From: Pseudobdellovibrionaceae bacterium
GTDB taxonomy: Bacteria; Bdellovibrionota; Bdellovibrionia; Bdellovibrionales; Bdellovibrionaceae
NCBI GenBank assembly: GCA_947374445.1
Contig: CANCBY010000001.1
Location: 1 to 47,805, forward strand
DNA length: 47,805 bases
Direction of reading: 5' to 3'
Each line of letters opens with the position of its first letter. Position 1 is the stretch's first letter. The position numbers and the translations under genes were made by a program. This document shows, piece by piece, positions 24,882 through 40,164 of this stretch. Below the pieces are notes generated by a model. That model was given only the letters and a program-made list of their open reading frames with translations. It did no database searches and was not told the DNA's origin.

Positions 24882-26366
24882 ATGAAAATGTCTCGAGATC
24901 ACATAATACTCAGTATCAATGGCCGTCAGCATGAGATTCGTGGTGAGCATGCATTTATGAATCTGTCGGAATACTTGCGTTACCAAGCAGGGCTTGCAGG
25001 AACAAAAATTGTCTGTGCTGAGGGTGATTGTGGAGCTTGTTCGGTCTTGGTGGCGAAGACTAGTGATCCAATACGTGATCAGCCTGTAAAGTTCAAGAGT
25101 ATCAACTCTTGTATTCAGCCTGTTTTTAATTTGGATGGTTGCATAGTTGTCACGGTTGAGGCGTTGGCATCAGCCAAAGAGTTGAGCGCTGTTCAACAGT
25201 CGATGGTCGATCAGCAAGGGGCTCAATGCGGATATTGCACTCCCGGGATTTGCATTTCGCTTAGTTACCTAAAGGAACAGACTGGCGGAACTGCGGAAGA
25301 GATTATACCATCCAAAGCGAAAAATTTTTTGACCGGAAATCTCTGCCGATGCACGGGTTACGAGCCGATCATTAAAGCGGCTTGCGGATTGGTCGACGTA
25401 AAAGAGAGTTCACTGAGTAAAAGGTTTCTAACGGCTTCTCAAGTATCGACGCTAAAAGGTGCAACACAAACTGATGTCTATTTTGGGTTTAATAGACCAG
25501 GCCTTGAGCCCATCGAGGTTTGGATACCATCAAGCAAAGAGTCTTTGTTTGGCATGCTTGGCAAGGGGCGATTGATTTCGGGTGCAACGGACTTGGGAGT
25601 CCAGCGCAACAAAGGGCGTCTCGGTGAATCACGATTTATCTCTTTGCAAAAAATAGCGGAGCTAAAGCAGGCCGTAGTAACAAATGGTTTATTACGAATT
25701 GGAGCAGGTCTGACTTGGGATCAGGTGCAAGATTTTTTGCAGGATGATTTTTCTGACTTTGCAGATTCTATAAATTTATTTGCTTCGCCGCAGATTAAGC
25801 ATATTGGAACCTTGGCCGGAAATATTATCAATGCCTCACCCATTGCCGACGGGGTGCCTTTTTTGCTGGTGAATGAAGCGGAGCTTTTGTTGCTCGGGTC
25901 TGGTGGCAAAGAAAGGCGAGTGCCGATTTCTGATTTTTACCAGGGTTATAAAAAGATAGGGATGGCTTCTGATGAGATTTTGTGGGCTGTTCTCTTGCCA
26001 AAAAATAAATTAAAACAAAGAGTGTATAAAGTTTCTCAACGCAAAGATTTAGATATCGCGACGATCAATTTGGCGATTGCATATGAACTTAAAGAAGGAG
26101 TTTTTTCTCATTTGAAACTGGCCTTTGGCGGTGTTGCAGAGACTTCACTGCGAATGACATCTATTGAGAGTCTTGCCCTTGGCCGCAAACCTGATGCATT
26201 GTTTGTCGCTGATTGTGCCAAGGCCATTGATCTTGCACTCAGGCCTTTGAGTGATGTCAGAGGCTCGTCTAAATACCGCATGCTATTAGCAAAGAACCTC
26301 ATCCAAAAATGGGTTGTAGAAATTGATTTAGAATCTCAGCAAAATGTGAATGAGGCGAATGTATGA
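24882..26366 (+). CDS. xdhA: xanthine dehydrogenase small subunit (2Fe-2S plus FAD-binding domains)
   Basis: CAEGDCGACSV, CGYCTPG and CRCTGY iron-sulfur motifs, followed by an FAD-binding/CO-dehydrogenase flavoprotein domain (GATDLGV...). Overlaps xdhB by 4 nt. Confidence 0.9.
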   Translation: MKMSRDHIILSINGRQHEIRGEHAFMNLSEYLRYQAGLAGTKIVCAEGDCGACSVLVAKTSDPIRDQPVKFKSINSCIQPVFNLDGCIVVTVEALASAKELSAVQQSMVDQQGAQCGYCTPGICISLSYLKEQTGGTAEEIIPSKAKNFLTGNLCRCTGYEPIIKAACGLVDVKESSLSKRFLTASQVSTLKGATQTDVYFGFNRPGLEPIEVWIPSSKESLFGMLGKGRLISGATDLGVQRNKGRLGESRFISLQKIAELKQAVVTNGLLRIGAGLTWDQVQDFLQDDFSDFADSINLFASPQIKHIGTLAGNIINASPIADGVPFLLVNEAELLLLGSGGKERRVPISDFYQGYKKIGMASDEILWAVLLPKNKLKQRVYKVSQRKDLDIATINLAIAYELKEGVFSHLKLAFGGVAETSLRMTSIESLALGRKPDALFVADCAKAIDLALRPLSDVRGSSKYRMLLAKNLIQKWVVEIDLESQQNVNEANV

Positions 26367-28699
26367 AGCACGGGCATTCTTCAGCTCATGACTCCGCTGT
26401 TTCGCATGTGACGGGTCAGAGCCAGTATGTCGACGACAGGCAAATGTTGAAAAATGAGCTTTTAGTTGGCTATGTCACAGCCAAAGTGGCTTGTGGCAAA
26501 ATCCAGAATATTGACTTTTCGAAGGCGTTGAAAGTTCCTGGCGTTGTTTGTGTTTTAACCGCGAGTGATCTGGCTCACAATAATTGGGGTACCATTGTTC
26601 AGGACCAACCGCTTTTAGCTCAAAGCCAGGTGGAATATTTTGATGAGCCTGTCGCGATTGTTGCGGCAGAGAGTGAGCAGGCATTGTCTTTGGCTAAAAA
26701 AATGATTTTGGTTGAGATTCAAGCTCTGCCTGCAGTTTTGACGATTCAAGAAGCTGTGAACAAAAAGATGTTTCTTTCGGTGGCCGAGCCCTTTATCAAA
26801 GGTGATTTCAATCAGGCTATGGCTGTGGCTCCACACAAACTTAAGGGAGAGCTCTCTCTTGGCGGTCAAGAGCATTTTTACATGGAGAATCAAGCTGCAG
26901 TTGTTTACTCCTCAGAGAACGGACATTTTGAAGTTCATTCTTCGACTCAACATCCAACCGAAACTCAGCATGTTGTAGCTAAAGCCTTAGGTATTGAATT
27001 CCATAAAGTGACTTGCATCGTAAAACGCTTGGGCGGTGGCTTCGGTGGTAAAGAGTCTCAGGCAGCTCCGATGGCAGCCATGGCTGCACTGGTCGCGCAA
27101 AAGACAGGTCGGGCTGCGCGTATGGTTCTCACCAAAGATGAAGACATGAAGATCACCGGTAAACGTCATCCATTTTGGCATCGCTACGAAATCGGTTTTG
27201 ACGAAAATGGAAAAATTCAAGCCGCCCGCTTTGAATTGTATGCTGACGGGGGCGCTTACACCGATCTTTCGCCTTCGATTTTAGAGCGAGCAATGTTTCA
27301 TGTAGATGGAGCTTATTATCTACCGAATGTAGAAATTTATGCGGCCTGCTGTAAAACCAACACTTATTCAAACACTGCTTTTCGTGGTTTTGGCGGCCCT
27401 CAAGGAACTTTTTTAATTGAGAGCTTGCTAGAGGACATTGCTGTTTTTTTAAAAAAAGACTCTTTCGATATTCGCACTTTGAACTCATATCAAGGTGATC
27501 GTAATTTGACTCCTTACGGGCAAAAGATTGAGCAAAATCCCTTGCCTGAGATTTTTTCAAAGCTGCGAAAGTCTTCAGATTATGATTCTCGACGCCAAGA
27601 GATTTTAAAGTTTAACTCCAAAGATAAATTTAAGCTTCGGGGTTTGTCGATGACAGCGACAAAGTTTGGCATTGCATTTACCGCGAGATTTTTAAATCAG
27701 GGCAATGCCTTAGTGAATTTGCATGTAGACGGAACGGCGCAGGTTTCAACCGGTGCTGTCGAAATGGGGCAGGGAGTAAATACTAAGATCTGCCAGTTGG
27801 TCGCTGAGGTTTTTGGTATTGATTCAAAAAAGATTTCCGTGATGACCACGTCGACGGAAAAAAATGCCAACACTTCTCCCACGGCCGCATCGAGCGGTGC
27901 TGATATTAATGGAGCTGCAGCGGTCAAGGCGGCGCAGGCGATCCGCCAGCGTTTAGCTCGATTGGCCGAAATGTATTTTGCGGGACAAACTTTTGATGCT
28001 TTGAATGAGTATCAGCTTTCGCAGAGTGCTGAAAATTTATCGCATTTTATTTTCAAAGAGGGTCAAGTGCATTGCACGCGAACAAATCAGAAAATTATTT
28101 TTTCTGATTTGTTAAAGAAAGCCCATTTGAATCGAATTTCCCTTTCCGAGTACGCTCATTTTAAGACCGAAGGGCTTGGTTTCGATAAAAAAACGATAAC
28201 AGGAACGCCATTTAAGTATTTTACTTTTGGAGCGGCTGTCACAGAAGTTGAGATTGATCGCTTCACTGGCGAAAGCAAAGTGCTTCGAACAGACATTTTG
28301 ATGGATCTGGGGCGGAGTCTTAATCCTGCCATTGATCGAGGACAGACCACGGGTGCGTTTGTACAAGGTTTGGGTTGGGTGCTTCTCGAGAAGCTGTATC
28401 ATAATACTTCAGGTGAGTTGCTTTCGCATTCGCCAACAACCTACAAAATTCCGAATGTTCAAGATACACCTCGAATATTTAACGTGGACTTTATTGAAGC
28501 CTATAAAGCTGAGGGCGTAGGTATCGGCGCTAAGGCTGTTGGGGAGCCACCTTTTTTGTTGGGTATTAGTTGCTGGACAGCAGTAAAAAATGCCTTGGCG
28601 GGGTTGGAGTCGTCGCGGCGTCCTGACTTTTCAAGTCCGGCAACCGGGGAAGTAATTCTGTTTGAAATAGAAAGGCTTAAAAGTGAGTCTTCGCTTTGA
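26363..28699 (+). CDS. xdhB: xanthine dehydrogenase molybdopterin-binding subunit
   Basis: Aldehyde oxidase/xanthine dehydrogenase a/b-hammerhead and MoCo domains: RLGGGFGGKE, NTAFRGFGGPQG, VEMGQGVNTK, VGEPPFLL. Confidence 0.92.
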   Translation: MKHGHSSAHDSAVSHVTGQSQYVDDRQMLKNELLVGYVTAKVACGKIQNIDFSKALKVPGVVCVLTASDLAHNNWGTIVQDQPLLAQSQVEYFDEPVAIVAAESEQALSLAKKMILVEIQALPAVLTIQEAVNKKMFLSVAEPFIKGDFNQAMAVAPHKLKGELSLGGQEHFYMENQAAVVYSSENGHFEVHSSTQHPTETQHVVAKALGIEFHKVTCIVKRLGGGFGGKESQAAPMAAMAALVAQKTGRAARMVLTKDEDMKITGKRHPFWHRYEIGFDENGKIQAARFELYADGGAYTDLSPSILERAMFHVDGAYYLPNVEIYAACCKTNTYSNTAFRGFGGPQGTFLIESLLEDIAVFLKKDSFDIRTLNSYQGDRNLTPYGQKIEQNPLPEIFSKLRKSSDYDSRRQEILKFNSKDKFKLRGLSMTATKFGIAFTARFLNQGNALVNLHVDGTAQVSTGAVEMGQGVNTKICQLVAEVFGIDSKKISVMTTSTEKNANTSPTAASSGADINGAAAVKAAQAIRQRLARLAEMYFAGQTFDALNEYQLSQSAENLSHFIFKEGQVHCTRTNQKIIFSDLLKKAHLNRISLSEYAHFKTEGLGFDKKTITGTPFKYFTFGAAVTEVEIDRFTGESKVLRTDILMDLGRSLNPAIDRGQTTGAFVQGLGWVLLEKLYHNTSGELLSHSPTTYKIPNVQDTPRIFNVDFIEAYKAEGVGIGAKAVGEPPFLLGISCWTAVKNALAGLESSRRPDFSSPATGEVILFEIERLKSESSL

Positions 28700-29474
28700 A
28701 GCCTATATAGAAAAATATCAAGAGCTCAAAGCTTTGCGTTTGGATTTTGTCACGGTCACATTGGTGAAGATTCTCGGAAGTGCTCCGCAAGATCTCGGTG
28801 CTCGGATGATTGTGTCTCACGAGGGTCTTTTCTGGGGCACAGTCGGCGGCGGAAAAATTGAAAATCACATGATTAAAAAAGCGCAGGAGCTGTTATTCAA
28901 GCCCGGTCTTTATTTGCAGGAGCTCGAAGTTAATCTGCAAAATGATATCGGGATGAGTTGCGGAGGCGCTGTAGGTTTTTTGCTCGAAGCCGAGCGGGCC
29001 GACAGCCTCTGGTCGATTGCAGTTTTTGGGGCAGGGCACGTTGCGCAAGAGCTGATTCCACTTTTGTTGCCGCTTGAGGCTCGTATTCAATGCTTTGACA
29101 CTCGAAAAGAGTGGATTGATAGGCTGCCAACAGCGGCTCATTTATCGAAGTCCCTGGTCGAAGATATGGCTGGGCAAGTTGCAGCTCTTTCTGAGAAGAC
29201 ATTTCTAGTCTCAATCACGATGGGGCACAGTTCAGATTTGCCAATTTTAGATAAGGCTCTTCAAAGAAAGTTTCCTTTTATTGGAGTGATCGGAAGTGAG
29301 CTTAAAGCAAAAAAGCTAGCTCAAGAGCTTTTGTCTTTAGGCCACGCCGAGCAAAGCGTTTCAAGAATGGTATGCCCTTTGGGGTTAAAACTAGGGACCA
29401 ATGCTCCTTATGAAATAGCCGTGAGTATTTTAGCGCAGTTGATTCAGGAGAGAGACAAGAGTTTGCTCGAATAG
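28683..29474 (+). CDS. xdhC: xanthine dehydrogenase accessory (MoCo insertion) protein XdhC
   Basis: XdhC/CoxI layout: VTLVKILGSAPQDLGARMIV...GTVGGG N-domain, then Rossmann-like IAVFGAGHVAQEL. GTG start overlaps the xdhB end. Confidence 0.85.
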   Translation: MSLRFEAYIEKYQELKALRLDFVTVTLVKILGSAPQDLGARMIVSHEGLFWGTVGGGKIENHMIKKAQELLFKPGLYLQELEVNLQNDIGMSCGGAVGFLLEAERADSLWSIAVFGAGHVAQELIPLLLPLEARIQCFDTRKEWIDRLPTAAHLSKSLVEDMAGQVAALSEKTFLVSITMGHSSDLPILDKALQRKFPFIGVIGSELKAKKLAQELLSLGHAEQSVSRMVCPLGLKLGTNAPYEIAVSILAQLIQERDKSLLE

Positions 29475-29479: not shown

Positions 29480-30757
29480 TTAAGAACTTCGGGCCAAAGT
29501 GCAAAGTTGATCACATCTGTCATTGTAGAAATGACCTCTGTGAGCTGGTATCCAAGTCCACTCGATTTTTATTTTTTCGGTCGCTGCATTTAATTTCAGG
29601 ATAAAATCGATATCAGGGATAGGTTTTCCATTTTTTTTTACCCAGCCGTTGTTTTTCCAGGCCGGCGCTTTTTGGATTGCAATCTCTGTTAGGACTCTTG
29701 AATCGGTGTAGAGGCGAACGTTTTTTTTGCGCAAGTTTTTTTGTTGAAAATGAGCGCATGTTTCAAGATAGGTGAGCGCTTCAATAGCAGCCTGAATTTC
29801 CATTCTTAGCGAAGTTGTTGGTGCAATGACGCGATCTGAGGACTCATGTACAACTTGATTGTTAACTAAGACCAGGTAGGCCCAGCTGCCAACATTATTC
29901 TTAAGGCTGCCATCGGTGTAGATTTGAATGGACGATGCTTGCGCTAGGCGGGTCGACAAAAGTGTCAGTGGAAATTTGAGAGCCTTAGCCAGCCATGAAT
30001 TTTCAGAAATCACCGATCCAAAAAATGGAGCTACCACGTAGTAGAACGATGTTAAAAATCGTCCAGCAAAATGCTTTTCAAGAACGTCATCTCGAAACTC
30101 TCTGAGTGCAAGAACTTCGGGCGCAAAAGTATTACCAAAAACTGCTGTGGCGACAAAGCAACTTTTGCCGCCTCCGAGTTCTTTATTTAGCTGCTTGTAG
30201 AGAGCTGGATTTTTTGAAGTGCGCGCTGCAATTCGTGCCTTTCGTGCCATAGTTGGAACGAAGCTTGTGTCTTTAATCAAAGCTGAAAATTCAGAACAAA
30301 TCTGTGCCTGCTGTTCTGGTTGGCCACGATCATAGATGGCAATTAAATCCCACAGCACAAAGAGGTACGTGGTGAACTCATCTGACTTGCCCATTTCGTC
30401 AAATATTTTTTGATTTAGTTCGCTTCGGGGTTTACCAAAAGTCTCTTCGAGAACTTTAATGTAATTCAAATAATGAAGTAGGGACTCGTCATAGTTGTAG
30501 TCTTTAAAAGCCATTATTCCGGCTTTGACGTAATCGCCTCTTGAGCGCCAGAGAATCATTTTTTTGAGCTCTTTGGGGTCGACCTTGTTTTCAATTAAGC
30601 TTGGTGTTGCCAAGAGCTGACTGAAAATATTTCGACAGGACTCGCAGGCTCTCGAAAAAACGGCGTCGGCCGACTGTTGAGTCAGCAGGCCATCTCGCAC
30701 CTCAGGGGGTACGAGTGCACATGTTTCGGTTTCAGAATGACAGCGAGGACATTTCAT
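29480..30757 (-). CDS. multidomain protein: N-terminal 4-Cys zinc ribbon, helical region, CFVATAVFG-motif module, C-terminal RNase HI domain
   Basis: CPRC...CESC at the N-terminus. CFVATAVFGNTFAPEVLALREFRDDVL in the middle. C-terminal RNase H with DEDD contexts IYTDGS, RMEIQAAIEAL, LYTDS and HFYNDRCDQL. Confidence 0.7.
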   Translation of the reverse strand: MKCPRCHSETETCALVPPEVRDGLLTQQSADAVFSRACESCRNIFSQLLATPSLIENKVDPKELKKMILWRSRGDYVKAGIMAFKDYNYDESLLHYLNYIKVLEETFGKPRSELNQKIFDEMGKSDEFTTYLFVLWDLIAIYDRGQPEQQAQICSEFSALIKDTSFVPTMARKARIAARTSKNPALYKQLNKELGGGKSCFVATAVFGNTFAPEVLALREFRDDVLEKHFAGRFLTSFYYVVAPFFGSVISENSWLAKALKFPLTLLSTRLAQASSIQIYTDGSLKNNVGSWAYLVLVNNQVVHESSDRVIAPTTSLRMEIQAAIEALTYLETCAHFQQKNLRKKNVRLYTDSRVLTEIAIQKAPAWKNNGWVKKNGKPIPDIDFILKLNAATEKIKIEWTWIPAHRGHFYNDRCDQLCTLARSS

Positions 30758-30822: not shown

Positions 30823-32100
30823 TTACTTGTCTTTCTGATTGTAATTCTGGTTGTAGCTCTGGCTGTCTTTTGGTTTTACTTTGGCGAATTTATCGATGAA
30901 GTGTTGGGTCATAGCTTCGACATCTTGCTTCCAAGTTTTAAGTGGAATTCTAGACACAAGATTGGTCCAGGCCTCAGGTTGTTGCACGGCTCTTGAGTGG
31001 ATAAATCCAAGCGCGTAGGCTTCATAATAAATTACATCACGATTTTCCTTCAAGGTCTTGTCATCTAAGGCTTTATCTGGATCTAGCTGAAGATCAAATC
31101 CAATATTGCCCCAAAACTTTGGACGTAGAATAAACTCTTGATCACGAATCGTTACTCCCTTGAACCAGGGCGAAGGGTTTAGTCCCTGTGTCACCCAGAG
31201 AGTATTGTTGATGCGCTCAAGAGCTGCTGGAACCTCTTGTGTTCTCATCACGGCGACCGCAGGAGCGATCAGTTTTTTCATCTCAAGATGGAGAGGGACT
31301 CCGTTGTTATTAACAAGTATCTCAAAGCGCAAAAGGCCCGATGAACCACCGCCGACTTTGTGAGTTGAAACCATATCTAGGATTTTCACGTTGGGAGAAA
31401 GCACACCTGAAAGACTTGCTAGGCCTGCCTTGATTTGCTGGACTTGGTCAGGCGTGACCTCGCGCATGTAAGGATCGCGAAGGATGCGGGTGCCAGAAAT
31501 TCGGGAAGGATTTGGAAAAGTTCCTCGCTCGCGGCTTTTAGCGGTCATCTTTTTGATCGGATCTGGAATGTCGATCACGCTGCGACGAAGTCCTGATATG
31601 TAAGACTCAATCATTTTTTCAAGCTTTACAGTCGATTCGTCGGCGCCAAGTTTTGAGCCCGGAGTTGTCACGGTCTCGTAAAGGCGGGTGCTGACCATCA
31701 AGCGGAACATATCAAGAACGATCGGGCAGGGGCCGGAGTCATCCATGTCATTGACAGAGAAGAGGTTGGCTCCATTACCCATTATGAGAACGCCAAAATT
31801 TTCAGGATGAGCATCGCCAACGCACCAGCCTGGAACGAGTCCCGCCGCTTGCATTACTTGCAAAGATCTTTGATTGACCATAGTCAGTGCGTAAAAATAG
31901 TCCACATAGCTGCGTAAAAAATGAAAAGAGTCATTGGCCGCGTTAAGTTTTTCTAGGTCTTTGCCAAAATCGTAGGGAACATCTTGTATTTTTATGGTGT
32001 CGCCATCCGCTTTTGCAGAGCTTGGTGCAAAACAAAAACTGCTGCTAATAACAAAAGAAAGCAAGATTGAGAGGGTCAGGGGAGAGATTTTCGCTAACAT
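30823..32100 (-). CDS. DUF2252 family protein with a signal peptide
   Basis: Signal peptide LTLSILLSFVISSSFCFA. WCVGDAHPENFGVLI matches the DUF2252 GD.H..NFG core. Confidence 0.65.
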   Translation of the reverse strand: MLAKISPLTLSILLSFVISSSFCFAPSSAKADGDTIKIQDVPYDFGKDLEKLNAANDSFHFLRSYVDYFYALTMVNQRSLQVMQAAGLVPGWCVGDAHPENFGVLIMGNGANLFSVNDMDDSGPCPIVLDMFRLMVSTRLYETVTTPGSKLGADESTVKLEKMIESYISGLRRSVIDIPDPIKKMTAKSRERGTFPNPSRISGTRILRDPYMREVTPDQVQQIKAGLASLSGVLSPNVKILDMVSTHKVGGGSSGLLRFEILVNNNGVPLHLEMKKLIAPAVAVMRTQEVPAALERINNTLWVTQGLNPSPWFKGVTIRDQEFILRPKFWGNIGFDLQLDPDKALDDKTLKENRDVIYYEAYALGFIHSRAVQQPEAWTNLVSRIPLKTWKQDVEAMTQHFIDKFAKVKPKDSQSYNQNYNQKDK

Positions 32101-33615: not shown

Positions 33616-33948
33616 TTGATTAGCACACATATTTTGGACACAAGTAAAGGGCAGCCAGCTTCAGGCGTAGAGGTCTCGTTAGAAAAAAAGCAAGGTGCTC
33701 AGTGGGAGTTGGTTGATCAGCAGCGAACTAATATTGATGGTCGAGTTGTGTTTAACTGTGGCTTTCACCCGGGATTCTACCGTCTGAATTTTCAAACTGA
33801 GGCCTATTTTAAGAAGACTCTCGGGACTTCTTTTGCATCGTTTTTTGCAGATGCTATTGTTCAGTTTAATATCGAGGACACTAAAAGAAAATATCATATC
33901 CCATTGCTTCTAAATCCTTTTGGGTACAGCACCTACCGGGGGAGCTAG
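33616..33948 (+). CDS. uraH: 5-hydroxyisourate hydrolase (transthyretin-like)
   Basis: (M)ISTHILDTSKGQPASGVEV..., and the diagnostic C-terminal tetrapeptide YRGS. TTG 33616 follows GGAGGA; the ORF-track TTG 33586 is also possible. The stop TAG shares its G with the GTG start of the next gene. Confidence 0.85.
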   Translation: MISTHILDTSKGQPASGVEVSLEKKQGAQWELVDQQRTNIDGRVVFNCGFHPGFYRLNFQTEAYFKKTLGTSFASFFADAIVQFNIEDTKRKYHIPLLLNPFGYSTYRGS

Positions 33949-36900
33949 TGAACTCAGTTTTTTTTGAGATCGAAGCATTCCATCAGTTTTTAGCTCCTCG
34001 GCTGGCTCGCAAAATTTTAAGTGACGCTATTCAGGTTTCTGCCGTGGATGGGCTTTGTTTGACTCAGCCGCCTTCAGGGCTTGAAACAACAGAATCTCTG
34101 CAATTTCTTTGTGACGTCTATTTGCAAACCAAATCGCAGTTAAAAACAGTGCTTCGCCAGCGCGCAAAGGATAGAGATTTTTTAGATGAACGAGTGGCCG
34201 CTTGTTATCAGTTCAATAAAGAGCGTAGCTACGATATCACAAATCCTCATGCGCGCTCAGTGATTGGTCTTGAGGATGGCAGTGGACGTGTTGTTTTTGG
34301 TCCGTTGCAGACTAACTACTTTACAGTAAACTCAAGCAAAGCAAAAATAGCTCCTTTGCCAGATTGGCTGCAGGGTCCTCATGTGACTCTCTTTGGGCCT
34401 CCGGACAACGCAAAAATGGCGATCAATGCCATGAATAGCTTCCATCGCAAACTCAAATCAGAACCGCCAATTGTTGAAGAGCTTTTAGCGCAAAATAATT
34501 GTTCGCCCTTCTGGGGGGCTGATGACGAGGATTCAAAAACTCCTCTTCACGTAGATTTGGTTGCTGCAGGTGAGAACCTCACGGCCTGTTTTAAAAATAC
34601 ACTTTGTCTTGAAGAGGGTCCGAAGAGGTATTCTCTTGCGAAAGATCATCTTGCAAAACCACTTAAGCGTTTTGCGGGCTTGGCATTGCCTGCAAGTTTT
34701 GCTTTCTATAAAAAAAACCCTCTCCCGCTTCATCTTTATGATTTTGCTCTGCATGTCTTTCATAATTGGGACAATCCTCAAGCTTTGGCGTTCTATGTCC
34801 CTAAATTAGAAAACGAAGAAGAGGCTGCGTATATTCATCACATGATTCAAGTCACAGAGGTGCTTCTTAAAAAGCTCCATCCGCAGTATGTGCTTGGAAC
34901 AATTCGCGTGATGGTAGTACTTGAAAACCCAAGAGCTATTTTGCGTTTGCATGAAATTATGGATAGTCTTTATCCTTATTTTGCAGGCGCGTCGCTTGGT
35001 TGGCATGATTACTTGGCATCGACGGCCCGAATTTTTAAAAATGACGGTCGCTATCGAATTCCGGTCAAAGCAGATCCAGAGATTGTGATCAAGTACATAA
35101 AGGCCTCTCATCATTTATTGGCCGATGTTGTGGGTTCTCGCGGTGGGATTAAAGTCGGCGGCATGTACGGAATTCTTCCTCAGCTGGATGAGCTCGATCC
35201 GACTTTGTCTCAACAGTCGTTTCAGGTGACGCTACGGGGTTTTTTTAAAGATGTGATCACGCAATTGAAGCGAGGCTTGAATGGATTTTGGGTGGCTCAC
35301 CCTGATTTTGTTCGCCTAGGGCTCGCGCTTGTAAAAGCCTGGGATCTTCATGTGGCGGGAGACTCTTTGCCAATTAAAAAGTTGGTTGAGGGCTTGCTTC
35401 CACGTCAATTTCAGAACGAGATCGAAAAGTTTATTTTTGCAGAGGACATAAAAGGACTCGATTCATCAGATCCTCAGTTTGTACGCTCATTGCTTGTGGC
35501 AAATATTAAAAAATCTGAATTTATAGCAAACAATCATCCAGATGAAATTCGCTACAACGTATTTCAGACCTTGCAGTATCTGACTGATTGGCTGAGCGGG
35601 CGTGGTTGTGTGGCGCTTCCAACAAGTATTGATGGCGTGGCTGTGCGAGTGATGGATGATTTGGCCACGGCCGAGCGATCACGCTGGGAGGTTTGGCACG
35701 AGCTTTATCACGGCCGTTTTTTGCTAGAAGATTTTTTAGTGATCGCGGCCGAAGAACTGCATTTTATTCGCAAGAATTTAACTCAAGGTCACAAGTCAGT
35801 TCAGGTTCAGTGGAATGAACGAACGGCCAAGTGGTATCCGGTGGCCTATCATTTAATGATCAAGCTGATGACGGATAAAAATCCTGCCGAGTTTGCCACG
35901 GAGCTTTTGTTGCCGTTTACAGTCGATCACATCAGAAATACCGATGAGCCTTTGGTGGCCTTACAAAAAATTGACCCAGAAAAAATTCGTCTTTTGCCAA
36001 ACGTAGAAAGATTTTTGCAAGGTTTTGAAGCTTGCGGGTCTAAGCGTTGGGCCAGCGCTCTGTCTCAGGATCTCATATTTGATAATTCAAAAGCCGAAGC
36101 CTTGATTAAATCATTTAGTTTTGAAGAGGTAAAAGAAGCCGCTCGATTTCACGGAGATATCGGCGAGAAAAAAGCGACTCTGGACGCTCATGCTTCAAAA
36201 GAGCAGGCCCTCGTTTTTTCTGAAGCCGAGAGTCTTCGCAAAGAACTTCAGGATCTGGGTTCAGAGTATTTAAATAGATTTGGGATAAAGTTTTTGGTTT
36301 CTGCCCAAGGCTTATCTGGGGGAGCTTTGCTCAGTCTTCTTAAAACGCGAAGCTTAAACTCGCTAGAGAGAGAGTTAGAGTTAGCTCGAGAAGCACTTTG
36401 GTTGATTGCAAAAAAAAGAATCACCAGTCGAAATAATGTCGATCTCTTTCAGAAAATTGAAAGCCTAAGACAAAGGTACTCTGTTAAAGCGGCAGGTCTT
36501 TGCATTTTGAATCAGGGACTGACTCAAGAATTAGCCCTTGGCGATGCTCGGGTTCACACCCATTTTCAAATAGCTTCATTGAGTAAGTCCATAGCTTCAG
36601 CCGTTGCTTTGCAATACTTTGAAAGTAAGGGGATTTCACTCTCCACATCGGTGAATCAGCTTCTTACTCAAAGTGGATCTGCTTATCGTATCGAGGCTGT
36701 TGCAGGAGTCGATGCCAGTGAAGTCAAGCTTGCTCATCTTATCAGCCATGCGGCGCTCAACATGCATTATGTCAATGGCATTAAGTCGGGTGAGCCAAAG
36801 CCTTCAGTTGCAGCTCTCGTCGGTGGAAGTGAAAAATACTCTTACCAGCGAGTGATGGCGATCAATCCTCCTGGGCAAAAATTTCAGTATTCGGGTGGGG

Positions 36901-38642
36901 GATTTTTAGTTCTTGAGCATCTGTTAGAGTCCTTGGAGTCAAAGCCGATTCAAGAGATTATTTCTCCGTATCTCGCGGCGATGGGGCTTAAAAATTTGGG
37001 TTGTGGTCAATCTGTTTTTGAAACAGCCAAAGGCTATTTTGATGACGGCAAAATGGTTTCGGGTGGGGGATTCCAGTTTCCATTGTTTGCAGCGGGGATG
37101 ACGTCTGATGCTAAAACAGTAGCGCAATTTCTGCGGGGGCTTGAATTAGCCTATAAAAATCTTCAAGGCTCTGCAGGAATATCACATGATTCGGCTGTAG
37201 AGATGCTTCACGGAACCGATCGCGGCTGCCAAAAATTTATGGGTTGCTTGATGGGGCTGGGGATTTTTGTTGCTGAAGCGGGCCCCAATAAAATGATGTT
37301 GCATCAAGGGTCTAACGAGGGCTTTCGAGCCTTATTTTTGCATTGTTATGCGGGTCCAGATGCAGGCAAAGGCATGGTTCTTTTGTGCAATGCTGACAAC
37401 CAAGGTTTGAGATTTATTGCCGAGACGGCGCAAGAACTGTTGAAAGCTTTCGAATTTCAAGGAATCAATTTTGATCTCTTTAGGCATCATTTCGATGCCA
37501 GCCTTTTTTCTCAAGAACAGATCGTAAATATGGGTTACAAGCAGTTAATTTTTTCAGCGTTTGAGCCCACTTTGCCTGAAAAAATTTTAGTTCATGGTCC
37601 GGTGAATTCGATGTCGCGTTTTGATATCTTGTCCGAGGCTAAAGTCATTTCTGTGACCAATCAAAAATTTGCAAGGGCTGAAAATCTTATCAGCCCCTTT
37701 GAGCCCACCTTTGACCCAGAGCTTTTTGGCCAGCAAGGCAAAGTGATGGACAGTTGGGAGTCAGTTCGTCACAACACATTGGAGTGCGACGAGGTTGTAT
37801 TTGAGCTGCAAAAGCCTTCATCGGTGAATTACATTTTTATTTCTACAAAATTTCACGACGGCAATCAGGCTGAATTTGTGAGGATTTTGGGTCTAATTGA
37901 AGCTAAGGTTGAGATTGATGCCGCTGGTTCTGAAAAGTGGATCGAGATTCTGCCAAAAGTACAAATGTTAGGACATTCATTTCGAAAAATAAGACTTGCA
38001 TCACCTACATCTATTTTCTCTCGCATTAAGATTCAAATGCAACCCGATGGGGGGCTTACACGAGTGGGTCTCTATCGAGAGTTTTCGATTTTAGATCGTG
38101 AAGGATTTGAAGCCCTTGAAAAAAGCAAATGCGTCCGATTTGCTGAGGCTATTCCTAAAGCACAAAAACCCTTGAGTCTTTCTTATGTGCCCGCGGCTAT
38201 TGATAAAAATAAAACTTCGCGAAAAAATCTTGCAAGTCTTGCTGAAGGCGCAAAGATGCTCTCGGCAACGAACGAGCATTATGGTCCTGCGATTCAGTTG
38301 CTTTCGCCGTTTGCGCCGCTCAATATGTTTGACGGAATTGAGTCCGCTCGCAGTCGCAAGCCAGGGCACTTTGAAGAGGTTATCGTCGCTCTCAGCGAAA
38401 TAAGCACCGTGAGTGAAGTTGTTTTGGATTTTAAATATTTTGTGAATAACAACCCTCTTTTTGTAGAAATCGAAGCGCTCTCAGTAACAAGTGGCTGGGT
38501 GTCTTTGGTTAAAAAAACTCAAGTGAAAGCATTTGCAGGAAATCAAAAATCGTTTTTTGTTAGCAACAACGATCAATTCACCCAAATTAGATTAAAGACA
38601 TTGCCTGACGGCGGAATCAACAGACTCTTTGTTTATGAATGA
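33948..38642 (+). CDS. 1564-aa four-module fusion: malate synthase-like (about aa 1-680), OHCU decarboxylase (about aa 685-830), beta-lactamase-fold serine hydrolase (about aa 850-1190), allantoicase (about aa 1210-1564)
   Basis: Malate synthase A-like: LYDFALHVFHN, FYVPKLENEEEA, TIRVMVVLEN, GGMYG, GFWVAHPDFV, VMDDLATAERSRWEVW. OHCU decarboxylase: CGSKRWA, EAARFHGDIGE, SKEQ, YLNRFGIKFLVSAQGLSG, ELELAREALWLIAKKRI. Serine hydrolase: ASLSKS (Ser877-x-x-Lys), HYVNG (YxN), LHQGS (HxG). Allantoicase repeats: QQGKVMDSWESVRHN, FHDGNQAEF, MQPDGGLTRVGLY and TLPDGGINRLFVY. No stop codon across 4695 nt. Confidence 0.85.
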   Translation: MNSVFFEIEAFHQFLAPRLARKILSDAIQVSAVDGLCLTQPPSGLETTESLQFLCDVYLQTKSQLKTVLRQRAKDRDFLDERVAACYQFNKERSYDITNPHARSVIGLEDGSGRVVFGPLQTNYFTVNSSKAKIAPLPDWLQGPHVTLFGPPDNAKMAINAMNSFHRKLKSEPPIVEELLAQNNCSPFWGADDEDSKTPLHVDLVAAGENLTACFKNTLCLEEGPKRYSLAKDHLAKPLKRFAGLALPASFAFYKKNPLPLHLYDFALHVFHNWDNPQALAFYVPKLENEEEAAYIHHMIQVTEVLLKKLHPQYVLGTIRVMVVLENPRAILRLHEIMDSLYPYFAGASLGWHDYLASTARIFKNDGRYRIPVKADPEIVIKYIKASHHLLADVVGSRGGIKVGGMYGILPQLDELDPTLSQQSFQVTLRGFFKDVITQLKRGLNGFWVAHPDFVRLGLALVKAWDLHVAGDSLPIKKLVEGLLPRQFQNEIEKFIFAEDIKGLDSSDPQFVRSLLVANIKKSEFIANNHPDEIRYNVFQTLQYLTDWLSGRGCVALPTSIDGVAVRVMDDLATAERSRWEVWHELYHGRFLLEDFLVIAAEELHFIRKNLTQGHKSVQVQWNERTAKWYPVAYHLMIKLMTDKNPAEFATELLLPFTVDHIRNTDEPLVALQKIDPEKIRLLPNVERFLQGFEACGSKRWASALSQDLIFDNSKAEALIKSFSFEEVKEAARFHGDIGEKKATLDAHASKEQALVFSEAESLRKELQDLGSEYLNRFGIKFLVSAQGLSGGALLSLLKTRSLNSLERELELAREALWLIAKKRITSRNNVDLFQKIESLRQRYSVKAAGLCILNQGLTQELALGDARVHTHFQIASLSKSIASAVALQYFESKGISLSTSVNQLLTQSGSAYRIEAVAGVDASEVKLAHLISHAALNMHYVNGIKSGEPKPSVAALVGGSEKYSYQRVMAINPPGQKFQYSGGGFLVLEHLLESLESKPIQEIISPYLAAMGLKNLGCGQSVFETAKGYFDDGKMVSGGGFQFPLFAAGMTSDAKTVAQFLRGLELAYKNLQGSAGISHDSAVEMLHGTDRGCQKFMGCLMGLGIFVAEAGPNKMMLHQGSNEGFRALFLHCYAGPDAGKGMVLLCNADNQGLRFIAETAQELLKAFEFQGINFDLFRHHFDASLFSQEQIVNMGYKQLIFSAFEPTLPEKILVHGPVNSMSRFDILSEAKVISVTNQKFARAENLISPFEPTFDPELFGQQGKVMDSWESVRHNTLECDEVVFELQKPSSVNYIFISTKFHDGNQAEFVRILGLIEAKVEIDAAGSEKWIEILPKVQMLGHSFRKIRLASPTSIFSRIKIQMQPDGGLTRVGLYREFSILDREGFEALEKSKCVRFAEAIPKAQKPLSLSYVPAAIDKNKTSRKNLASLAEGAKMLSATNEHYGPAIQLLSPFAPLNMFDGIESARSRKPGHFEEVIVALSEISTVSEVVLDFKYFVNNNPLFVEIEALSVTSGWVSLVKKTQVKAFAGNQKSFFVSNNDQFTQIRLKTLPDGGINRLFVYE

Positions 38643-38700: not shown

Positions 38701-38958
38701 ATGACGAATAACGACATATTTAAAAAACTCCGGGTCGCGCTCTCATTCAAAGACACGGATATCATCGAGTGCTTGGCTTTGGTTGATTATAATATTTCAA
38801 AGAGCGAGCTCTCGGCCATTTTTCGGGCTGAAGACCATCCGAACTATCAAGAGTGCGGCGATCAATTGCTTCGCAACTTTTTAAATGGCTTGATCATCAA
38901 AAATCGTGGACCGATGCCGTCAGATAAAAAGGCTCCGCCATCCAATAAGAAATGGTAA
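38701..38958 (+). CDS. DUF1456 family protein (YehS-like)
   Basis: MTNNDIFKKLRVALSFKDTDIIECL...SELSAIFR...YQECGDQLLRNFLNGL is the typical DUF1456 repeat. Confidence 0.7.
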   Translation: MTNNDIFKKLRVALSFKDTDIIECLALVDYNISKSELSAIFRAEDHPNYQECGDQLLRNFLNGLIIKNRGPMPSDKKAPPSNKKW

Positions 38959-38970
38959 GCCCCAGAAGGT

Positions 38971-40164
38971 TTATTGGCCAACTTGGTGTTGGCTGATCCA
39001 ACTTGCGAGTATGGCTCGCTCTTCATCGGTGATTTTAGTTTTATTTATCAGCGGCATTGTTTTTGCGACAACGACCTGCTGGTAAAGCTGAGGAATCACT
39101 TTTAGCATCTGCTCTTCTGTTTCAAGAATGAGTCCCTTTGGAGGCTCGGTAAAAATGTCGTCAGTTGGATGGACTCCATGGCAGGCCAGGCATCGCGCTT
39201 GAACGATGGGATGTATTTGCGAATAAGTTACTAAATCCGACGAGCTGCTCCCGCGGTCAGCAATGGGCTGATTGGCAGTGATATAAATGAGTGCCAAAAG
39301 TCCTAAGGAAGCAGGCAGAAGAGTCCATCTCTCTTTGCTATTTTTAGTGACCATAGCGTGGCGAACCATCGCTCCAGAAATCAAAAGAACAATGAGAATC
39401 TGCCAATTATAAACGTGGTTGTAGAGTGCCGGATAATGGTTGCTGAGCATTATGAAAAGAACAGGAAATGTAAAATAGGTATTATGAACAGAGCGGGTCT
39501 TCGCCTTGACGCTGAATGAGTAATCAGGGACTCGTCCTTCGCTGGCATCAAAGACCATCTTTTTTTGTCCAGGTAATATGCGAACCCAAACATTCAAAAG
39601 CATCATTGTTCCGAGCATAGCTCCTGTTTGAATAAAAGCTCCGCGAGAGCTAAAAAAATGAAGATTAATCATGATAAAACCAAAGAGCAGACCAGCAGAT
39701 AAAAGAATATTGATAAACTTTGACTGAATGTACTTCCAGATACTGTCGTAAATCAGCCATCCAGATATAATCAGGCCTAGGCTTGTTGCAATGGCTTCTA
39801 GTTGGGTGAGTGAGGTCGTTGGATTAGAGGAATTAATGAGAAGACTTGCGCCCTTCAGATAATACAAATAAATTAAAAGTAAATAGCCCGTCATGACTGT
39901 GAGCGTGGCCTCCCACTTAAACCAGTGCAAAACCTTCGGCAGTTCTCCAGGATAGATTTTTTTCTTTTCGACTTGGTAGTAAAAGCCTCCATGTACCATG
40001 AAGAGTTCCCCATCGACGTTTCTTCTGGGTGTTTCTGGTGGAACAAAGGCGCTGTCGAGCCACATAAAATAAAAAGAACTACCAATCCACGCGATCCCAG
40101 CCACTAAGTGAGAGAAGCGAATCAAATACTCGACCCAAATATCAACACTGGAATAAAGCGACAT
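38971..40164 (-). CDS. puuD: integral-membrane cytochrome-c urate hydroxylase (PuuD / DUF989 type)
   Basis: The N-terminal RFSHLVAGIAWIGSSFYFMWLDS...FMVHGGFYY matches the DUF989 core. Multiple TM helices. The C-terminal soluble domain carries the heme-c motif CLACH. Lies in a purine-catabolic context. Confidence 0.75.
   Translation of the reverse strand: MSLYSSVDIWVEYLIRFSHLVAGIAWIGSSFYFMWLDSAFVPPETPRRNVDGELFMVHGGFYYQVEKKKIYPGELPKVLHWFKWEATLTVMTGYLLLIYLYYLKGASLLINSSNPTTSLTQLEAIATSLGLIISGWLIYDSIWKYIQSKFINILLSAGLLFGFIMINLHFFSSRGAFIQTGAMLGTMMLLNVWVRILPGQKKMVFDASEGRVPDYSFSVKAKTRSVHNTYFTFPVLFIMLSNHYPALYNHVYNWQILIVLLISGAMVRHAMVTKNSKERWTLLPASLGLLALIYITANQPIADRGSSSSDLVTYSQIHPIVQARCLACHGVHPTDDIFTEPPKGLILETEEQMLKVIPQLYQQVVVAKTMPLINKTKITDEERAILASWISQHQVGQ

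What the first reader, a model, noticed from the sequence alone, without database searches (positions are those of the whole stretch)
24882..40164. Purine-to-malate supercluster with a membrane cytochrome-c urate hydroxylase, interrupted by unrelated genes
Within 15 kb on the plus strand sit xdhA-xdhB-xdhC (hypoxanthine/xanthine to urate), uraH (HIU to OHCU) and the four-module fusion (OHCU to allantoin; allantoate to ureidoglycolate; glyoxylate to malate). A convergent PuuD-type DUF989 plus CxxCH protein would supply urate to HIU in place of a soluble uricase. That is nearly a complete xanthine-to-C4 route. Oddities seen: the xdh genes are separated from the ureide genes by three non-pathway genes, namely an RNase H fusion and a DUF2252 gene on the opposite strand, then an SQS-like gene. 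No purine/urate/allantoin transporter, no regulator (PucR/AllR/GntR type) and no ureidoglycolate lyase, urease or allophanate genes appear in the window. If the lineage guess (predatory/Bdellovibrionota-like) is right, such a block might help salvage prey nucleotides as a carbon and nitrogen source. That part is speculation.
Basis: partly seen in the sequence, partly recalled or inferred. Interest (0 to 1): 0.65.

Follow-up and report, generated by a model that had tools for sequence, protein, structure and literature searches.

The report
Purine breakdown cluster with four-enzyme fusion
A predatory-type bacterium carries a real, widely conserved gene cluster for breaking down purines. Its 1564-residue fusion protein probably supplies two steps through enzyme families not known to do them in bacteria: a beta-lactamase-like allantoinase and a malate-synthase-like ureidoglycolate lyase.

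Summary
xdhA, xdhB, xdhC, uraH, a 1564-aa four-module fusion and a convergent PuuD urate oxidase lie at the stated coordinates. In at least 10 Bdellovibrionota genomes the same genes are contiguous as xdhABC-uraH-fusion/PuuD, so this is not a chance grouping.

The interpretation needs three corrections.

1. It is a cytosolic class-C beta-lactamase-fold serine hydrolase between OHCU decarboxylase and allantoicase, with an intact SxxK, Tyr and HxG triad. Fifty loci have this module and none has AllB or PuuE. Sixteen loci lack it and all have AllB or PuuE.

2. The "malate synthase" module belongs to a separate clade. It has GWHD where malate synthase A has GRWD, plus a lid-loop insertion. In Pirellulaceae, Desulfobulbaceae and Bradymonadia it sits in ureide clusters that lack only ureidoglycolate lyase. 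Elsewhere it is fused directly to allantoicase. By analogy with zebrafish MS-like UGL, it is more likely that lyase. The route would then end at glyoxylate plus urea, not malate.

3. The RNase H and DUF2252 genes are lineage-specific inserts. The SQS-like gene lies inside the operon in four relatives.

All functions are inferred. None was assayed.

The parts
24882..26366 (+). xdhA, the xanthine dehydrogenase small subunit (2Fe-2S and FAD)
   Evidence: Pfam finds Fer2_2, FAD_binding_5 and CO_deh_flav_C. The best NCBIfam hit is TIGR02963, covering residues 12-480 at 374 bits, which is below the 467 cutoff.
26363..28699 (+). xdhB, the molybdopterin subunit
   Evidence: TIGR02965 scores 860.5, above the 849.5 cutoff. 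The best PDB match is 1JRO chain B at 597 bits, with Glu232, Arg310 and Glu730 conserved.
28683..29474 (+). xdhC, the Moco insertion chaperone
   Evidence: Pfam finds XdhC_CoxI and XdhC_C. TIGR02964 scores 151.7 against a 161.6 cutoff.
29480..30757 (-). RNase HI fused to a CFI-box-CTERM domain; a lineage-specific insert, not part of the pathway
   Evidence: Domain hits are. It has no homologue in 78 related loci. It is present only in L079.
30823..32100 (-). DUF2252 protein with an N-terminal signal-like sequence; a lineage-specific insert
   Evidence: Supported. It is absent from 78 loci and present in L079.
32457..33584 (+). Squalene-synthase-like gene, probably co-transcribed with uraH and the fusion
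   Evidence: Pfam SQS_PSY scores 84.8 bits. The SQS motifs are conserved across 120 homologues. Its stop lies 1 nt before the uraH start. The same position inside the operon is seen in L079, L083 and the P0274 contig.
33586..33948 (+). uraH, 5-hydroxyisourate hydrolase
   Evidence: TIGR02962 scores 121.2, above the 87.45 cutoff. The protein ends in YRGS.
33948..35990 (+). Fusion module 1 (aa 1 to about 680): malate-synthase-like TIM barrel plus lid; proposed ureidoglycolate lyase
   Evidence: Pfam finds MS_TIM-barrel and MS_C. Its closest solved fold is malate synthase A, 3CUZ, at TMt 0.76. The GWHD signature and lid insertion are shown.
35991..36428 (+). Fusion module 2 (aa about 681 to 827): OHCU decarboxylase
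   Evidence: Pfam OHCU_decarbox scores 60.9 bits over aa 714-825. FHGxIG, EQ and the C-terminal KR are conserved in 120 homologues.
36429..37592 (+). Fusion module 3 (aa 828 to 1215): class-C beta-lactamase-fold serine hydrolase; proposed allantoinase
   Evidence: PF00144 scores 63.9 bits. SLSK, HYV and HQG are invariant. The AF2 model has pLDDT 92. Foldseek TM is 0.6-0.7 to family VIII esterase, R61 DD-peptidase and AmpC. It is mutually exclusive with AllB and PuuE.
37593..38642 (+). Fusion module 4 (aa about 1216 to 1564): allantoicase, two repeats
   Evidence: Pfam Allantoicase scores 165 bits in two stretches. TIGR02961 scores 177 bits, below the cutoff.
38701..38958 (+). DUF1456 small ORF downstream of the fusion
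   Evidence: PF07308 scores 109 bits. The same gene follows the fusion in L079.
38971..40164 (-). puuD, integral-membrane cytochrome c urate oxidase
   Evidence: Urate_ox_N scores 302 bits and covers positions 5-291 of the 295-position model. There are eight hydrophobic segments. CLACH starts at residue 325 and Met370 lies 41 residues after the His. These features match those listed in PMC4562309.

Best explanation
The region encodes an oxidative purine-to-glyoxylate pathway typical of Bdellovibrionota.

Proposed route:
1. XdhAB, matured by XdhC, oxidises hypoxanthine and xanthine to urate.
2. The membrane cytochrome c oxidase PuuD converts urate to 5-hydroxyisourate and passes electrons to the respiratory chain instead of making H2O2.
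3. UraH gives OHCU.
4. The single cytosolic 1564-aa polypeptide then carries out four consecutive steps. OHCU decarboxylase (module 2) makes (S)-allantoin. The beta-lactamase-fold serine hydrolase (module 3) opens the hydantoin ring through an acyl-enzyme on the SxxK serine, giving allantoate. It would therefore be a third, non-homologous type of allantoinase that replaces AllB or PuuE. Allantoicase (module 4) releases urea and (S)-ureidoglycolate. The malate-synthase-like module (module 1) acts as ureidoglycolate lyase and releases a second urea and glyoxylate.

What is shown: gene identities, module boundaries, intact catalytic motifs, folds, conserved synteny, and the complementary distribution of module 3 with AllB/PuuE.

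What is inferred: the substrates of modules 1 and 3.

In this window the ancestral operon is split into two units. One is xdhABC. The other is SQS-like-uraH-fusion(-DUF1456). An inserted RNase H/DUF2252 pair on the opposite strand separates them.
For: Conserved cluster. The contiguous order xdhABC-uraH-fusion/PuuD occurs in at least 10 species-level genomes. More than 100 90%-identity clusters of the full four-module protein exist, all from Bdellovibrionota or Oligoflexia where named.

Module 3 as allantoinase:
- It lies between OHCU decarboxylase and allantoicase, which matches the reaction order.
- SLSK, the Tyr of HYV, and HQGxNxGFR are invariant in 120 homologues.
- The AF2 model is confident (pLDDT 92) and has the class-C beta-lactamase / DD-peptidase / family VIII esterase fold at 14-20% identity.
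- It is an internal module with no signal peptide, so it is not a periplasmic PBP or beta-lactamase.
- All 50 loci with the module have no AllB or PuuE within 10 kb. All 16 loci with AllB (14) or PuuE (2) lack the module.
- In Pirellulaceae, OHCU decarboxylase is fused to AllB instead (TIGR03178 at 513 bits plus TIGR03180).

Module 1 as ureidoglycolate lyase (UGL):
- Zebrafish MS-like protein is an experimentally shown UGL with no malate synthase activity. It has Arg276 replaced (PMC10120013).
- The clade here has invariant GWHD in place of GRWD, so Arg276 becomes Trp and Trp277 becomes His. Trp277 abuts the acetyl group in malate synthase A (PMC3832036).
- It also lacks the MSA-invariant basic residues R168, H171 and K353, and has an insertion of 8 to 13 aa before the lid Asp447.
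- Pirellulaceae clusters encode Xdh, uricase, UraH, AllB-UraD, allantoate amidohydrolase and ureidoglycine aminohydrolase, all above NCBIfam cutoffs, plus this MS-like gene. They encode no other enzyme for ureidoglycolate.
- The same holds for Desulfobulbaceae (PuuE, AAH, UGlyAH, MS-like) and Bradymonadia (PuuD, UraH, ALC-UraD, PuuE, MS-like).
- GWHD-type proteins are fused to allantoicase (P0192, P0200). GRWD-type proteins are fused to isocitrate lyase (P0253, P0260).
Against: - No enzyme assay exists for any module, and only 10 kb on each side of each locus was inspected. A conventional allantoinase or AllA-type lyase could be encoded elsewhere in these genomes.
- The loci are phylogenetically related, so the 50-versus-16 complementarity overstates the number of independent events.
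- Module 1 keeps the full malate synthase catalytic set (Arg166, Glu250, Asp278, Trp365, Cys438, Asp447). It also keeps Trp365, which the eukaryotic UGL has lost. Malate synthase activity is therefore not excluded.
- Malate synthase G also lacks an Arg at the position of Arg276. This is from my own recollection of MSG sequences and was not tested here.
- Nine of the 30 stand-alone MS-like loci have no ureide genes nearby.
- The MS-like structural model is only moderately confident (pLDDT 72.8), and the diagnostic loop is poorly predicted.
- Serine hydrolases of this family are not known to open hydantoin rings.
Confidence: 0.6

Rival explanations
1. Module 1 is a genuine, divergent malate synthase that condenses the glyoxylate end product with acetyl-CoA, so the cluster runs from purine to malate. 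Ureidoglycolate is converted to glyoxylate by allantoicase itself, spontaneously, or by a lyase encoded elsewhere.
For: - The MSA fold is retained, and so are Arg166, Glu250, Asp278, Trp365, Cys438 and Asp447.
- 46 of 75 MSA-invariant columns are kept.
- Canonical malate synthases do occur next to ureide genes in Actinobacteria: loci L077 and L078 show 27-28% identity hits with uraH, uricase and AllB nearby.
- Ureidoglycolate is described as a substrate of allantoicase in older literature cited in PMC10120013.
Against: - The module fails TIGR01344 by a wide margin (125 against 594.5).
- The two residues next to the Mg-binding Asp278 that face the acetyl group are replaced in every member.
- The amidohydrolase-route clusters (Pirellulaceae, Desulfobulbaceae) contain no allantoicase. 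They would be left with no enzyme for ureidoglycolate.
- GWHD-type proteins fuse to allantoicase, whereas GRWD-type proteins fuse to isocitrate lyase.
- There is experimental precedent that an MS-like protein is a UGL with no MS activity.
Confidence: 0.25
2. Module 3 is not an allantoinase. It could be a ureidoglycolate- or ureide-amide hydrolase, for example a ureidoglycolate amidohydrolase feeding a true malate synthase in module 1. It could also be a non-catalytic or regulatory scaffold. In either case allantoinase would be encoded elsewhere in the genome.
For: - No member of PF00144 is known to hydrolyse allantoin.
- Only 10 kb flanks were examined.
- The family includes amidases and esterases with many different substrates.
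Against: - The catalytic triad motifs are invariant, so a scaffold role is unlikely.
- The module is strictly complementary to AllB and PuuE, not to any ureidoglycolate enzyme.
- It sits where AllB is fused in Pirellulaceae, next to OHCU decarboxylase.
- This model leaves two pathway gaps in different lineages, whereas the preferred model leaves none.
Confidence: 0.12
3. The SQS-like gene, and possibly DUF1456, are functional members of the pathway in this sub-lineage rather than passengers. For example, the SQS-like enzyme might make an isoprenoid or quinone-related lipid needed by membrane PuuD.
For: - The SQS-like gene lies between xdhC and uraH with overlapping or abutting stop and start codons in the window, L079, L083 and the P0274 contig.
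- Its SQS catalytic motifs are intact.
Against: - It is absent from the 78 species-representative loci.
- More distant homologues (45-50% identity) lie in unrelated contexts.
- No chemical link to purines is known.
Confidence: 0.1

Closest known systems
Zebrafish malate synthase-like ureidoglycolate lyase (DrMSL/UGL; Dembech et al., PNAS 2023, PMC10120013)
   Same: It has a malate synthase A-type fold recruited to purine catabolism. Arg276 is replaced. It is associated with allantoicase. The glyoxylate and Mg site (Arg166, Glu250, Asp278, Asp447) is retained.
   Different: The paper describes the UGL group as eukaryote-only. The clade here is bacterial, plus unnamed two-module MS-like-allantoicase fusions. 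It has Trp rather than Ile at position 276 and His at 277, and it keeps Trp365 (Met in DrMSL). It has an 8 to 13-aa lid insertion and an N-terminal extension of about 130 aa. A direct sequence comparison with DrMSL could not be made.
Allantoinases AllB (amidohydrolase, TIGR03178) and PuuE (polysaccharide-deacetylase fold, TIGR03212)
   Same: Both occupy the same position in the pathway and in fusions or gene neighbourhoods with OHCU decarboxylase and allantoicase.
   Different: Module 3 is not homologous to either. It is a serine hydrolase of the class-C beta-lactamase / DD-peptidase / family VIII esterase fold, so it would work through covalent acyl-enzyme chemistry rather than a metal centre or the PuuE mechanism.
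PuuD integral-membrane cytochrome c urate oxidase (Doniselli et al., Sci Rep 2015, PMC4562309)
   Same: It has a full-length DUF989/Urate_ox_N domain with eight hydrophobic helices and a C-terminal cytochrome c domain with CXXCH. The distal Met lies 41 residues after the His.
   Different: None of note. It is an ordinary member from a phylum not discussed in that paper.
Rhodobacter capsulatus-type XdhAB/XdhC xanthine dehydrogenase (PDB 1JRO)
   Same: It shares the two-subunit architecture, the XdhC chaperone, and the catalytic residues Glu232, Arg310 and Glu730.
   Different: XdhA and XdhC score somewhat below the NCBIfam equivalog cutoffs.
Isocitrate lyase-malate synthase fusions (glyoxylate cycle; for example C. 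elegans, and P0253 and P0260 here)
   Same: An MS-fold domain is fused to the enzyme that produces its substrate.
   Different: Those fusions carry the canonical GRWD malate synthase joined to a glyoxylate producer. Here a GWHD-type domain is joined to a ureidoglycolate producer.

Membership tests
Xanthine dehydrogenase XdhAB (R. capsulatus type) | Domain architecture: 2Fe-2S and FAD in the small subunit, Moco domains in the large subunit, and an XdhC chaperone | tested here: met
   XdhB exceeds the TIGR02965 cutoff. XdhA (374 against 467) and XdhC (151.7 against 161.6) fall below their equivalog cutoffs.
Xanthine dehydrogenase XdhAB (R. capsulatus type) | The purine-specific active-site residues Glu232, Arg310 and Glu730 (aldehyde oxidases lack the first two) | tested here: met
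   The alignment to 1JRO chain B shows GGKE, ERAM and VGEPP conserved.
HIU hydrolase (UraH) | Transthyretin fold, equivalog score, and the C-terminal YRGS motif | tested here: met
   TIGR02962 scores 121.2, above 87.45. The sequence ends ...STYRGS.
PuuD urate oxidase | Eight-helix DUF989 domain | tested here: met
   PF06181 scores 302 bits and covers 5-291 of 295 positions. The hydropathy scan finds eight hydrophobic segments.
PuuD urate oxidase | C-terminal cytochrome c domain with an invariant CXXCH and a distal Met about 40 residues on | tested here: met
   CLACH is at residues 325-329 and Met370 follows. The cytochrome c Pfam hits are weak, as PMC4562309 also reports for this family.
PuuD urate oxidase | Urate oxidation without H2O2 | not testable with these tools
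   This needs a genetic or biochemical assay.
OHCU decarboxylase | Family profile match | tested here: inconclusive
   Pfam scores 60.9, above the gathering score of 24. TIGR03180 scores 66 against 139.4 and NF010372 scores 67 against 124, both below cutoff. The His, Glu and Arg-containing motifs are conserved in 120 homologues. Their assignment as catalytic residues is from memory of the zebrafish enzyme.
Allantoicase | Two allantoicase repeats | tested here: met
   PF03561 scores 165 bits in two stretches. TIGR02961 scores 177 against 277.9, below the equivalog cutoff.
Malate synthase A | Equivalog-level similarity | tested here: not met
   TIGR01344 scores 125 against 594.5. Identity to canonical MSA representatives is 29-35%.
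Malate synthase A | Catalytic Arg166, Mg ligands Glu250 and Asp278, and base Asp447 | tested here: met
   Shown by the alignment to 3CUZ and to 17 MSA representatives.
Malate synthase A | The invariant GRWD motif (Arg276, and Trp277 lining the acetyl site) and a short Cys438-Asp447 lid loop | tested here: not met
   GWHD is present in all 27 clade members, with an insertion of 8 to 13 aa. The role of Trp277 is taken from PMC3832036.
Eukaryotic MS-like ureidoglycolate lyase (UGL group) | Arg276 replaced | tested here: met
   The residue here is Trp, against Ile in DrMSL.
Eukaryotic MS-like ureidoglycolate lyase (UGL group) | Trp365 replaced by Met | tested here: not met
   Trp is retained in all members.
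Eukaryotic MS-like ureidoglycolate lyase (UGL group) | A 2-aa insertion at the glyoxylate/acetyl-CoA interface, a non-conserved CoA site, and phylogenetic placement with DrMSL | tested here: inconclusive
   A larger lid insertion is present, and the MSA-invariant R168, H171 and K353 are lost. The DrMSL sequence and the paper's supplement were unavailable.
Class C beta-lactamase / DD-peptidase / family VIII esterase (PF00144) | The SxxK, Tyr and (K/H)xG motifs and the fold | tested here: met
   SLSK, HYV and HQG are invariant. Foldseek gives TM 0.6-0.7 with probability 1.0. The profile against the PDB gives E of about 1e-11.
Class C beta-lactamase / DD-peptidase / family VIII esterase (PF00144) | Secreted or periplasmic location, as expected for true beta-lactamases and PBPs | tested here: not met
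   It is an internal module (aa 828-1215) of a protein with no N-terminal signal sequence.
Known allantoinases (AllB, PuuE) | Homology to TIGR03178 or TIGR03212 | tested here: not met
   tblastn with AllB and PuuE finds no hit in the window or in any of the 50 loci carrying module 3. NCBIfam finds no such hit in the fusion.

The most novel reading that the evidence does not exclude
One 1564-residue polypeptide, conserved across Bdellovibrionota, would carry four consecutive ureide-pathway reactions: OHCU to allantoin, to allantoate, to ureidoglycolate, to glyoxylate. Two of its modules would be previously unrecognised enzyme types. One is a serine-hydrolase (beta-lactamase-fold) allantoinase, a third non-homologous solution after AllB and PuuE. 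The other is a bacterial malate-synthase-fold ureidoglycolate lyase, whose stand-alone form also completes ureide clusters in Planctomycetota, Desulfobulbaceae and Bradymonadia and is currently annotated as 'hypothetical protein' or 'malate synthase'.
Probability: 0.4. Interest if true: 0.75.

Novelty: new variant of a known kind. Interest (0 to 1): 0.6.

Why it matters
Purine catabolism is a textbook case of non-orthologous gene displacement, and its enzyme inventory was thought to be nearly closed.

If the inferences hold, they would add a third allantoinase family. They would also extend the malate-synthase-to-ureidoglycolate-lyase switch from eukaryotes to bacteria.

Hundreds of database entries now named 'serine hydrolase', 'malate synthase' or 'hypothetical protein' would need correcting. 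So would metabolic reconstructions that credit these organisms with a glyoxylate-to-malate step, or that mark allantoin degradation as incomplete.

The fusion would also give a natural single-chain system for studying how unstable ureide intermediates are channelled.

For Bdellovibrionota biology, the cluster suggests that these bacteria oxidise purines, for predatory members possibly purines from prey. Xdh and PuuD would feed the electrons into respiration, and the nitrogen would be released as urea.

Tried and rejected
- A single-sequence PDB search with module 3 gave nothing significant. Only a profile and a fold search placed it.
- Literature searches found no paper on the fusion, on a beta-lactamase-like allantoinase, or on purine catabolism in Bdellovibrio.
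- The supplement of PMC10120013, needed for the DrMSL alignment, is not held. Lohman et al. 2008 on MSA is not held either. CoA-contact residues therefore could not be mapped.
- The last homologue search, using the MS-like part of P0192, returned only 12 unnamed proteins and no eukaryotic UGL. The relation of the GWHD clade to the zebrafish UGL group stays open.
- Promoter and terminator consensus scans were at background level and say nothing about operon boundaries.
- I rejected the idea that the whole interruption is specific to this window, because the SQS-like gene is in the operon in relatives.
- I rejected a scaffold-only role for module 3, because its catalytic motifs are invariant.
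- P0243, a malate synthase homologue with Leu at position 276, was considered as a possible UGL-type bridge. It could not be placed, because its sources name it only 'malate synthase'.

Full report
**1. What is there**

| Gene | Coordinates | Main evidence |
|---|---|---|
| xdhA | 24882-26366+ | Fer2_2, FAD_binding_5, CO_deh_flav_C; best hit TIGR02963 |
| xdhB | 26363-28699+ | TIGR02965, 860.5 bits (cutoff 849.5) |
| xdhC | 28683-29474+ | XdhC_CoxI, XdhC_C |
| RNase HI fused to CFI-box-CTERM | 29480-30757- | |
| DUF2252, signal-like N-terminus | 30823-32100- | |
| SQS/PSY-like | 32457-33584+ | |
| uraH | 33586-33948+ | above equivalog cutoff; ends in YRGS |
| 1564-aa fusion | 33948-38642+ | four modules, see section 3 |
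| PuuD | 38971-40164- | see below |

- XdhB aligns best to Rhodobacter capsulatus XDH chain B. It keeps Glu232, Arg310 and Glu730, the residues that separate xanthine dehydrogenases from aldehyde oxidases.
- PuuD matches the Urate_ox_N model almost end to end (302 bits). It has eight hydrophobic segments, a CLACH motif, and a Met 41 residues after the His. These are the features Doniselli et al. give for the family (PMC4562309).
- An 85-aa DUF1456 ORF (38701-38958+) between the fusion and puuD had been missed.
- Pfam scans of the rest of the window found no purine transporter, no pathway regulator, no urease and no allophanate genes.

**2. The cluster is real and conserved**

The fusion has more than 100 full-length relatives at 53-67% identity. 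All named ones come from Bdellovibrionota or Oligoflexia, and NCBI calls them 'serine hydrolase'.

I fetched 78 loci from species-representative genomes and searched them by tblastn. The contiguous order xdhA-xdhB-xdhC-uraH-fusion, followed by a convergent puuD, occurs in L006, L008, L011, L014, L015, L016, L019, L035, L038 and L045. Other arrangements of the same genes occur in Bacteriovoracaceae-type and Oligoflexales loci. The window is a rearranged version of this ancestral operon.

**3.

The Pfam order is MS_TIM-barrel/MS_C (aa 1 to about 680), OHCU_decarbox (about 690-826), Beta-lactamase PF00144 (835-1152) and Allantoicase x2 (1231-1564).

Evidence on the beta-lactamase-family module:

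- **Motifs.** In an alignment of 120 full-length homologues it keeps invariant SLSK, HYV (Tyr) and HQGxNxGFR.
- **Sequence relatives.** It has no close solved relative. A single sequence finds nothing significant in the PDB. A profile finds only distant class C beta-lactamases, R61 DD-peptidase and esterases.
- **Fold.** AlphaFold gives a confident model (pLDDT 92). Its best structural matches are a family VIII esterase, R61 DD-peptidase, AmpC enzymes and LACTB, at TM 0.6-0.7 and 14-20% identity.
- **Location.** It is internal to a protein with no signal sequence, so it is a cytosolic metabolic hydrolase and not a resistance enzyme or PBP.

**4. Why module 3 is probably the allantoinase**

- It sits between the enzyme that makes allantoin and the enzyme that uses allantoate.
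- Its distribution complements the known allantoinases exactly:

| Loci | AllB or PuuE within 10 kb |
|---|---|
| 50 with the module | 0 |
| 16 with AllB (14) or PuuE (2) | all lack the module |

- In Pirellulaceae, OHCU decarboxylase is fused to a bona fide AllB instead (TIGR03178 at 513 bits plus TIGR03180 at 140.8 bits). In Bradymonadia and Desulfobulbaceae a bona fide PuuE lies in the cluster (TIGR03212 at 500 and 529 bits).

This is the classic pattern of non-orthologous displacement.

There are limits. The loci are not phylogenetically independent. Only 10 kb flanks were seen. No member of this hydrolase family is known to open a hydantoin ring. I put the inference at about 0.7.

**5. 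Why the 'malate synthase' module is probably a ureidoglycolate lyase**

*Fold and similarity*

- The module fails the malate synthase A equivalog by far (125 bits against 594.5).
- It does have the MSA fold, with 3CUZ as the best match at TMt 0.76. The model is only moderately confident (pLDDT 72.8).

*A separate clade*

- An exhaustive search of 1.84 billion representatives finds a compact family (89 representatives below 1e-30). Similarity then drops to canonical malate synthases at 29-35% identity.

*Active-site changes*

- All 27 members of the family keep Arg166, Glu250, Asp278, Trp365 and Asp447.
- They carry GWHD where all 17 canonical sequences carry GRWD.
- They have lost MSA-invariant R168, H171, K353 and others. 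Only 46 of 75 MSA-invariant columns are retained.
- They have 8 to 13 extra residues in the lid loop just before Asp447.
- Trp277 of MSA lies against the acetyl group of acetyl-CoA (PMC3832036).

*Experimental precedent*

- Dembech et al. showed that the zebrafish MS-like protein, which also lacks Arg276, is a stereospecific ureidoglycolate lyase with no malate synthase activity. They described that UGL group as eukaryote-only (PMC10120013).

*Genomic context*

- Pirellulaceae clusters encode xdhCBA, allantoate amidohydrolase, (S)-ureidoglycine aminohydrolase, uricase, AllB-UraD and UraH, all above curated cutoffs, and then this MS-like gene. Nothing else there could act on ureidoglycolate.
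- Desulfobulbaceae have MS-like next to UGlyAH and AAH, with PuuE nearby.
- Bradymonadia have MS-like, PuuE, PuuD, an allantoicase-UraD fusion and UraH.
- GWHD-type domains occur fused directly to allantoicase (P0192, P0200). GRWD-type domains occur fused to isocitrate lyase (P0253, P0260).

*Points against*

- The malate synthase catalytic residues are complete, and Trp365 is retained although the eukaryotic UGL has lost it.
- Canonical malate synthases occur in some actinobacterial ureide loci (L077, L078).
- Nine stand-alone loci have no ureide neighbours.

I put UGL at about 0.6 and genuine malate synthase at about 0.25 to 0.3. If the module is a UGL, the cluster ends at glyoxylate plus two urea, and the title 'purine-to-malate' is wrong.

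**6. The interrupting genes**

- RNase H and DUF2252 have no counterpart in the 78 loci. Together they occur only in the closest relative, L079, whose fusion is 67% identical. They are lineage-specific inserts on the opposite strand. They split the operon into xdhABC and a second unit.
- The SQS-like gene is different.
  - In L079 it precedes uraH, as in the window.
  - In L083 and the P0274 contig the order is xdhA-xdhB-xdhC-SQS-uraH-fusion on one strand, with 4-nt overlaps.
  - It keeps the squalene-synthase motifs (VSRSF, LDTxED, YCxFVAGxVG, FGLFLQKxNxLKDQxxDE).
  - More distant homologues (45-50% identity) are common in Bdellovibrionota but lie in unrelated contexts.

  It is therefore an operon member in this sub-lineage, with no evident biochemical link to purines. 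I leave this unexplained.

**7. Operon signals**

Consensus promoter and terminator scans were at background level. Gene spacing is the only evidence for transcription units:

- xdhA/xdhB and xdhB/xdhC overlap.
- The SQS-like stop lies 1 nt before the uraH start.
- The uraH stop shares a base with the fusion's GTG start.

**8. Novelty**

The cluster as a pathway is ordinary, and XDH, UraH, allantoicase and PuuD are ordinary members of their families.

Two things stand out. I found no literature on the four-module fusion. Two of its modules are predicted to perform known reactions with unexpected folds. I rate this a new variant of a known kind.

All functional assignments for modules 1 and 3 are inferences from motifs, folds, fusions and gene neighbourhoods. 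The decisive tests are simple enzyme assays.

Noticed in passing
window 13932-18931 (+): A DinB_2 + FGE-sulfatase + methyltransferase protein with OvoA-like architecture (5-histidylcysteine sulfoxide synthase type). It is followed by a class-V aminotransferase and a GH14 beta-amylase, which is uncommon in bacteria.
   Followed up: no
window 32457-33584 (+); L079 3077-4240; L083 9005-10063: A squalene-synthase-like gene with intact SQS motifs is embedded between xdhC and uraH in a sub-lineage of Bdellovibrionota. In L083 its stop and the uraH start overlap by 4 nt. There is no obvious link between an isoprenoid head-to-head synthase and purine catabolism.
   Followed up: partly
window 29480-30757 (-): An RNase HI domain is fused behind a region of about 270 aa that contains a CFI-box-CTERM domain (NF041770, 66 bits). 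This is an unusual architecture, shared with L079.
   Followed up: no
L084-L087 (P0192), P0200, P0402-P0406: A small family of two-module proteins of about 1030-1110 aa, consisting of a GWHD-type MS-like domain plus allantoicase. They sit on 3.3-6 kb single-gene contigs. L084 has a CT-rich low-complexity 5' flank, which suggests a eukaryotic (protist) transcript or gene.
   Followed up: partly
L014 2612-3100, and the same position in L015, L016, L019, L035, L038 and L045: A 162-aa cytidine-deaminase-fold protein lies immediately upstream of xdhA in Bdellovibrio-type loci. It may be a guanine deaminase feeding xanthine into the pathway. The window has no counterpart in that position, which is occupied by a methyltransferase on the opposite strand.
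   Followed up: no
window 40171-42398 (-); L083 19165-19932: puuD is followed on the same strand by a GT2 glycosyltransferase and a DUF6056 membrane protein. The GT2 neighbour is conserved in L083.
   Followed up: no
L013, L018, L027, L030, L031, L040, L042, L043: In Bacteriovoracaceae-type loci the PuuD homologue is 530-640 aa, not about 395 aa. It lies upstream of uraH on the same strand, and only its first roughly 270 residues match the window's PuuD. The extra C-terminal region was not examined.
   Followed up: no
window 38701-38958 (+); L079 9373-9642: A DUF1456 small protein is conserved directly downstream of the fusion gene in the window and in its closest relative.
   Followed up: partly
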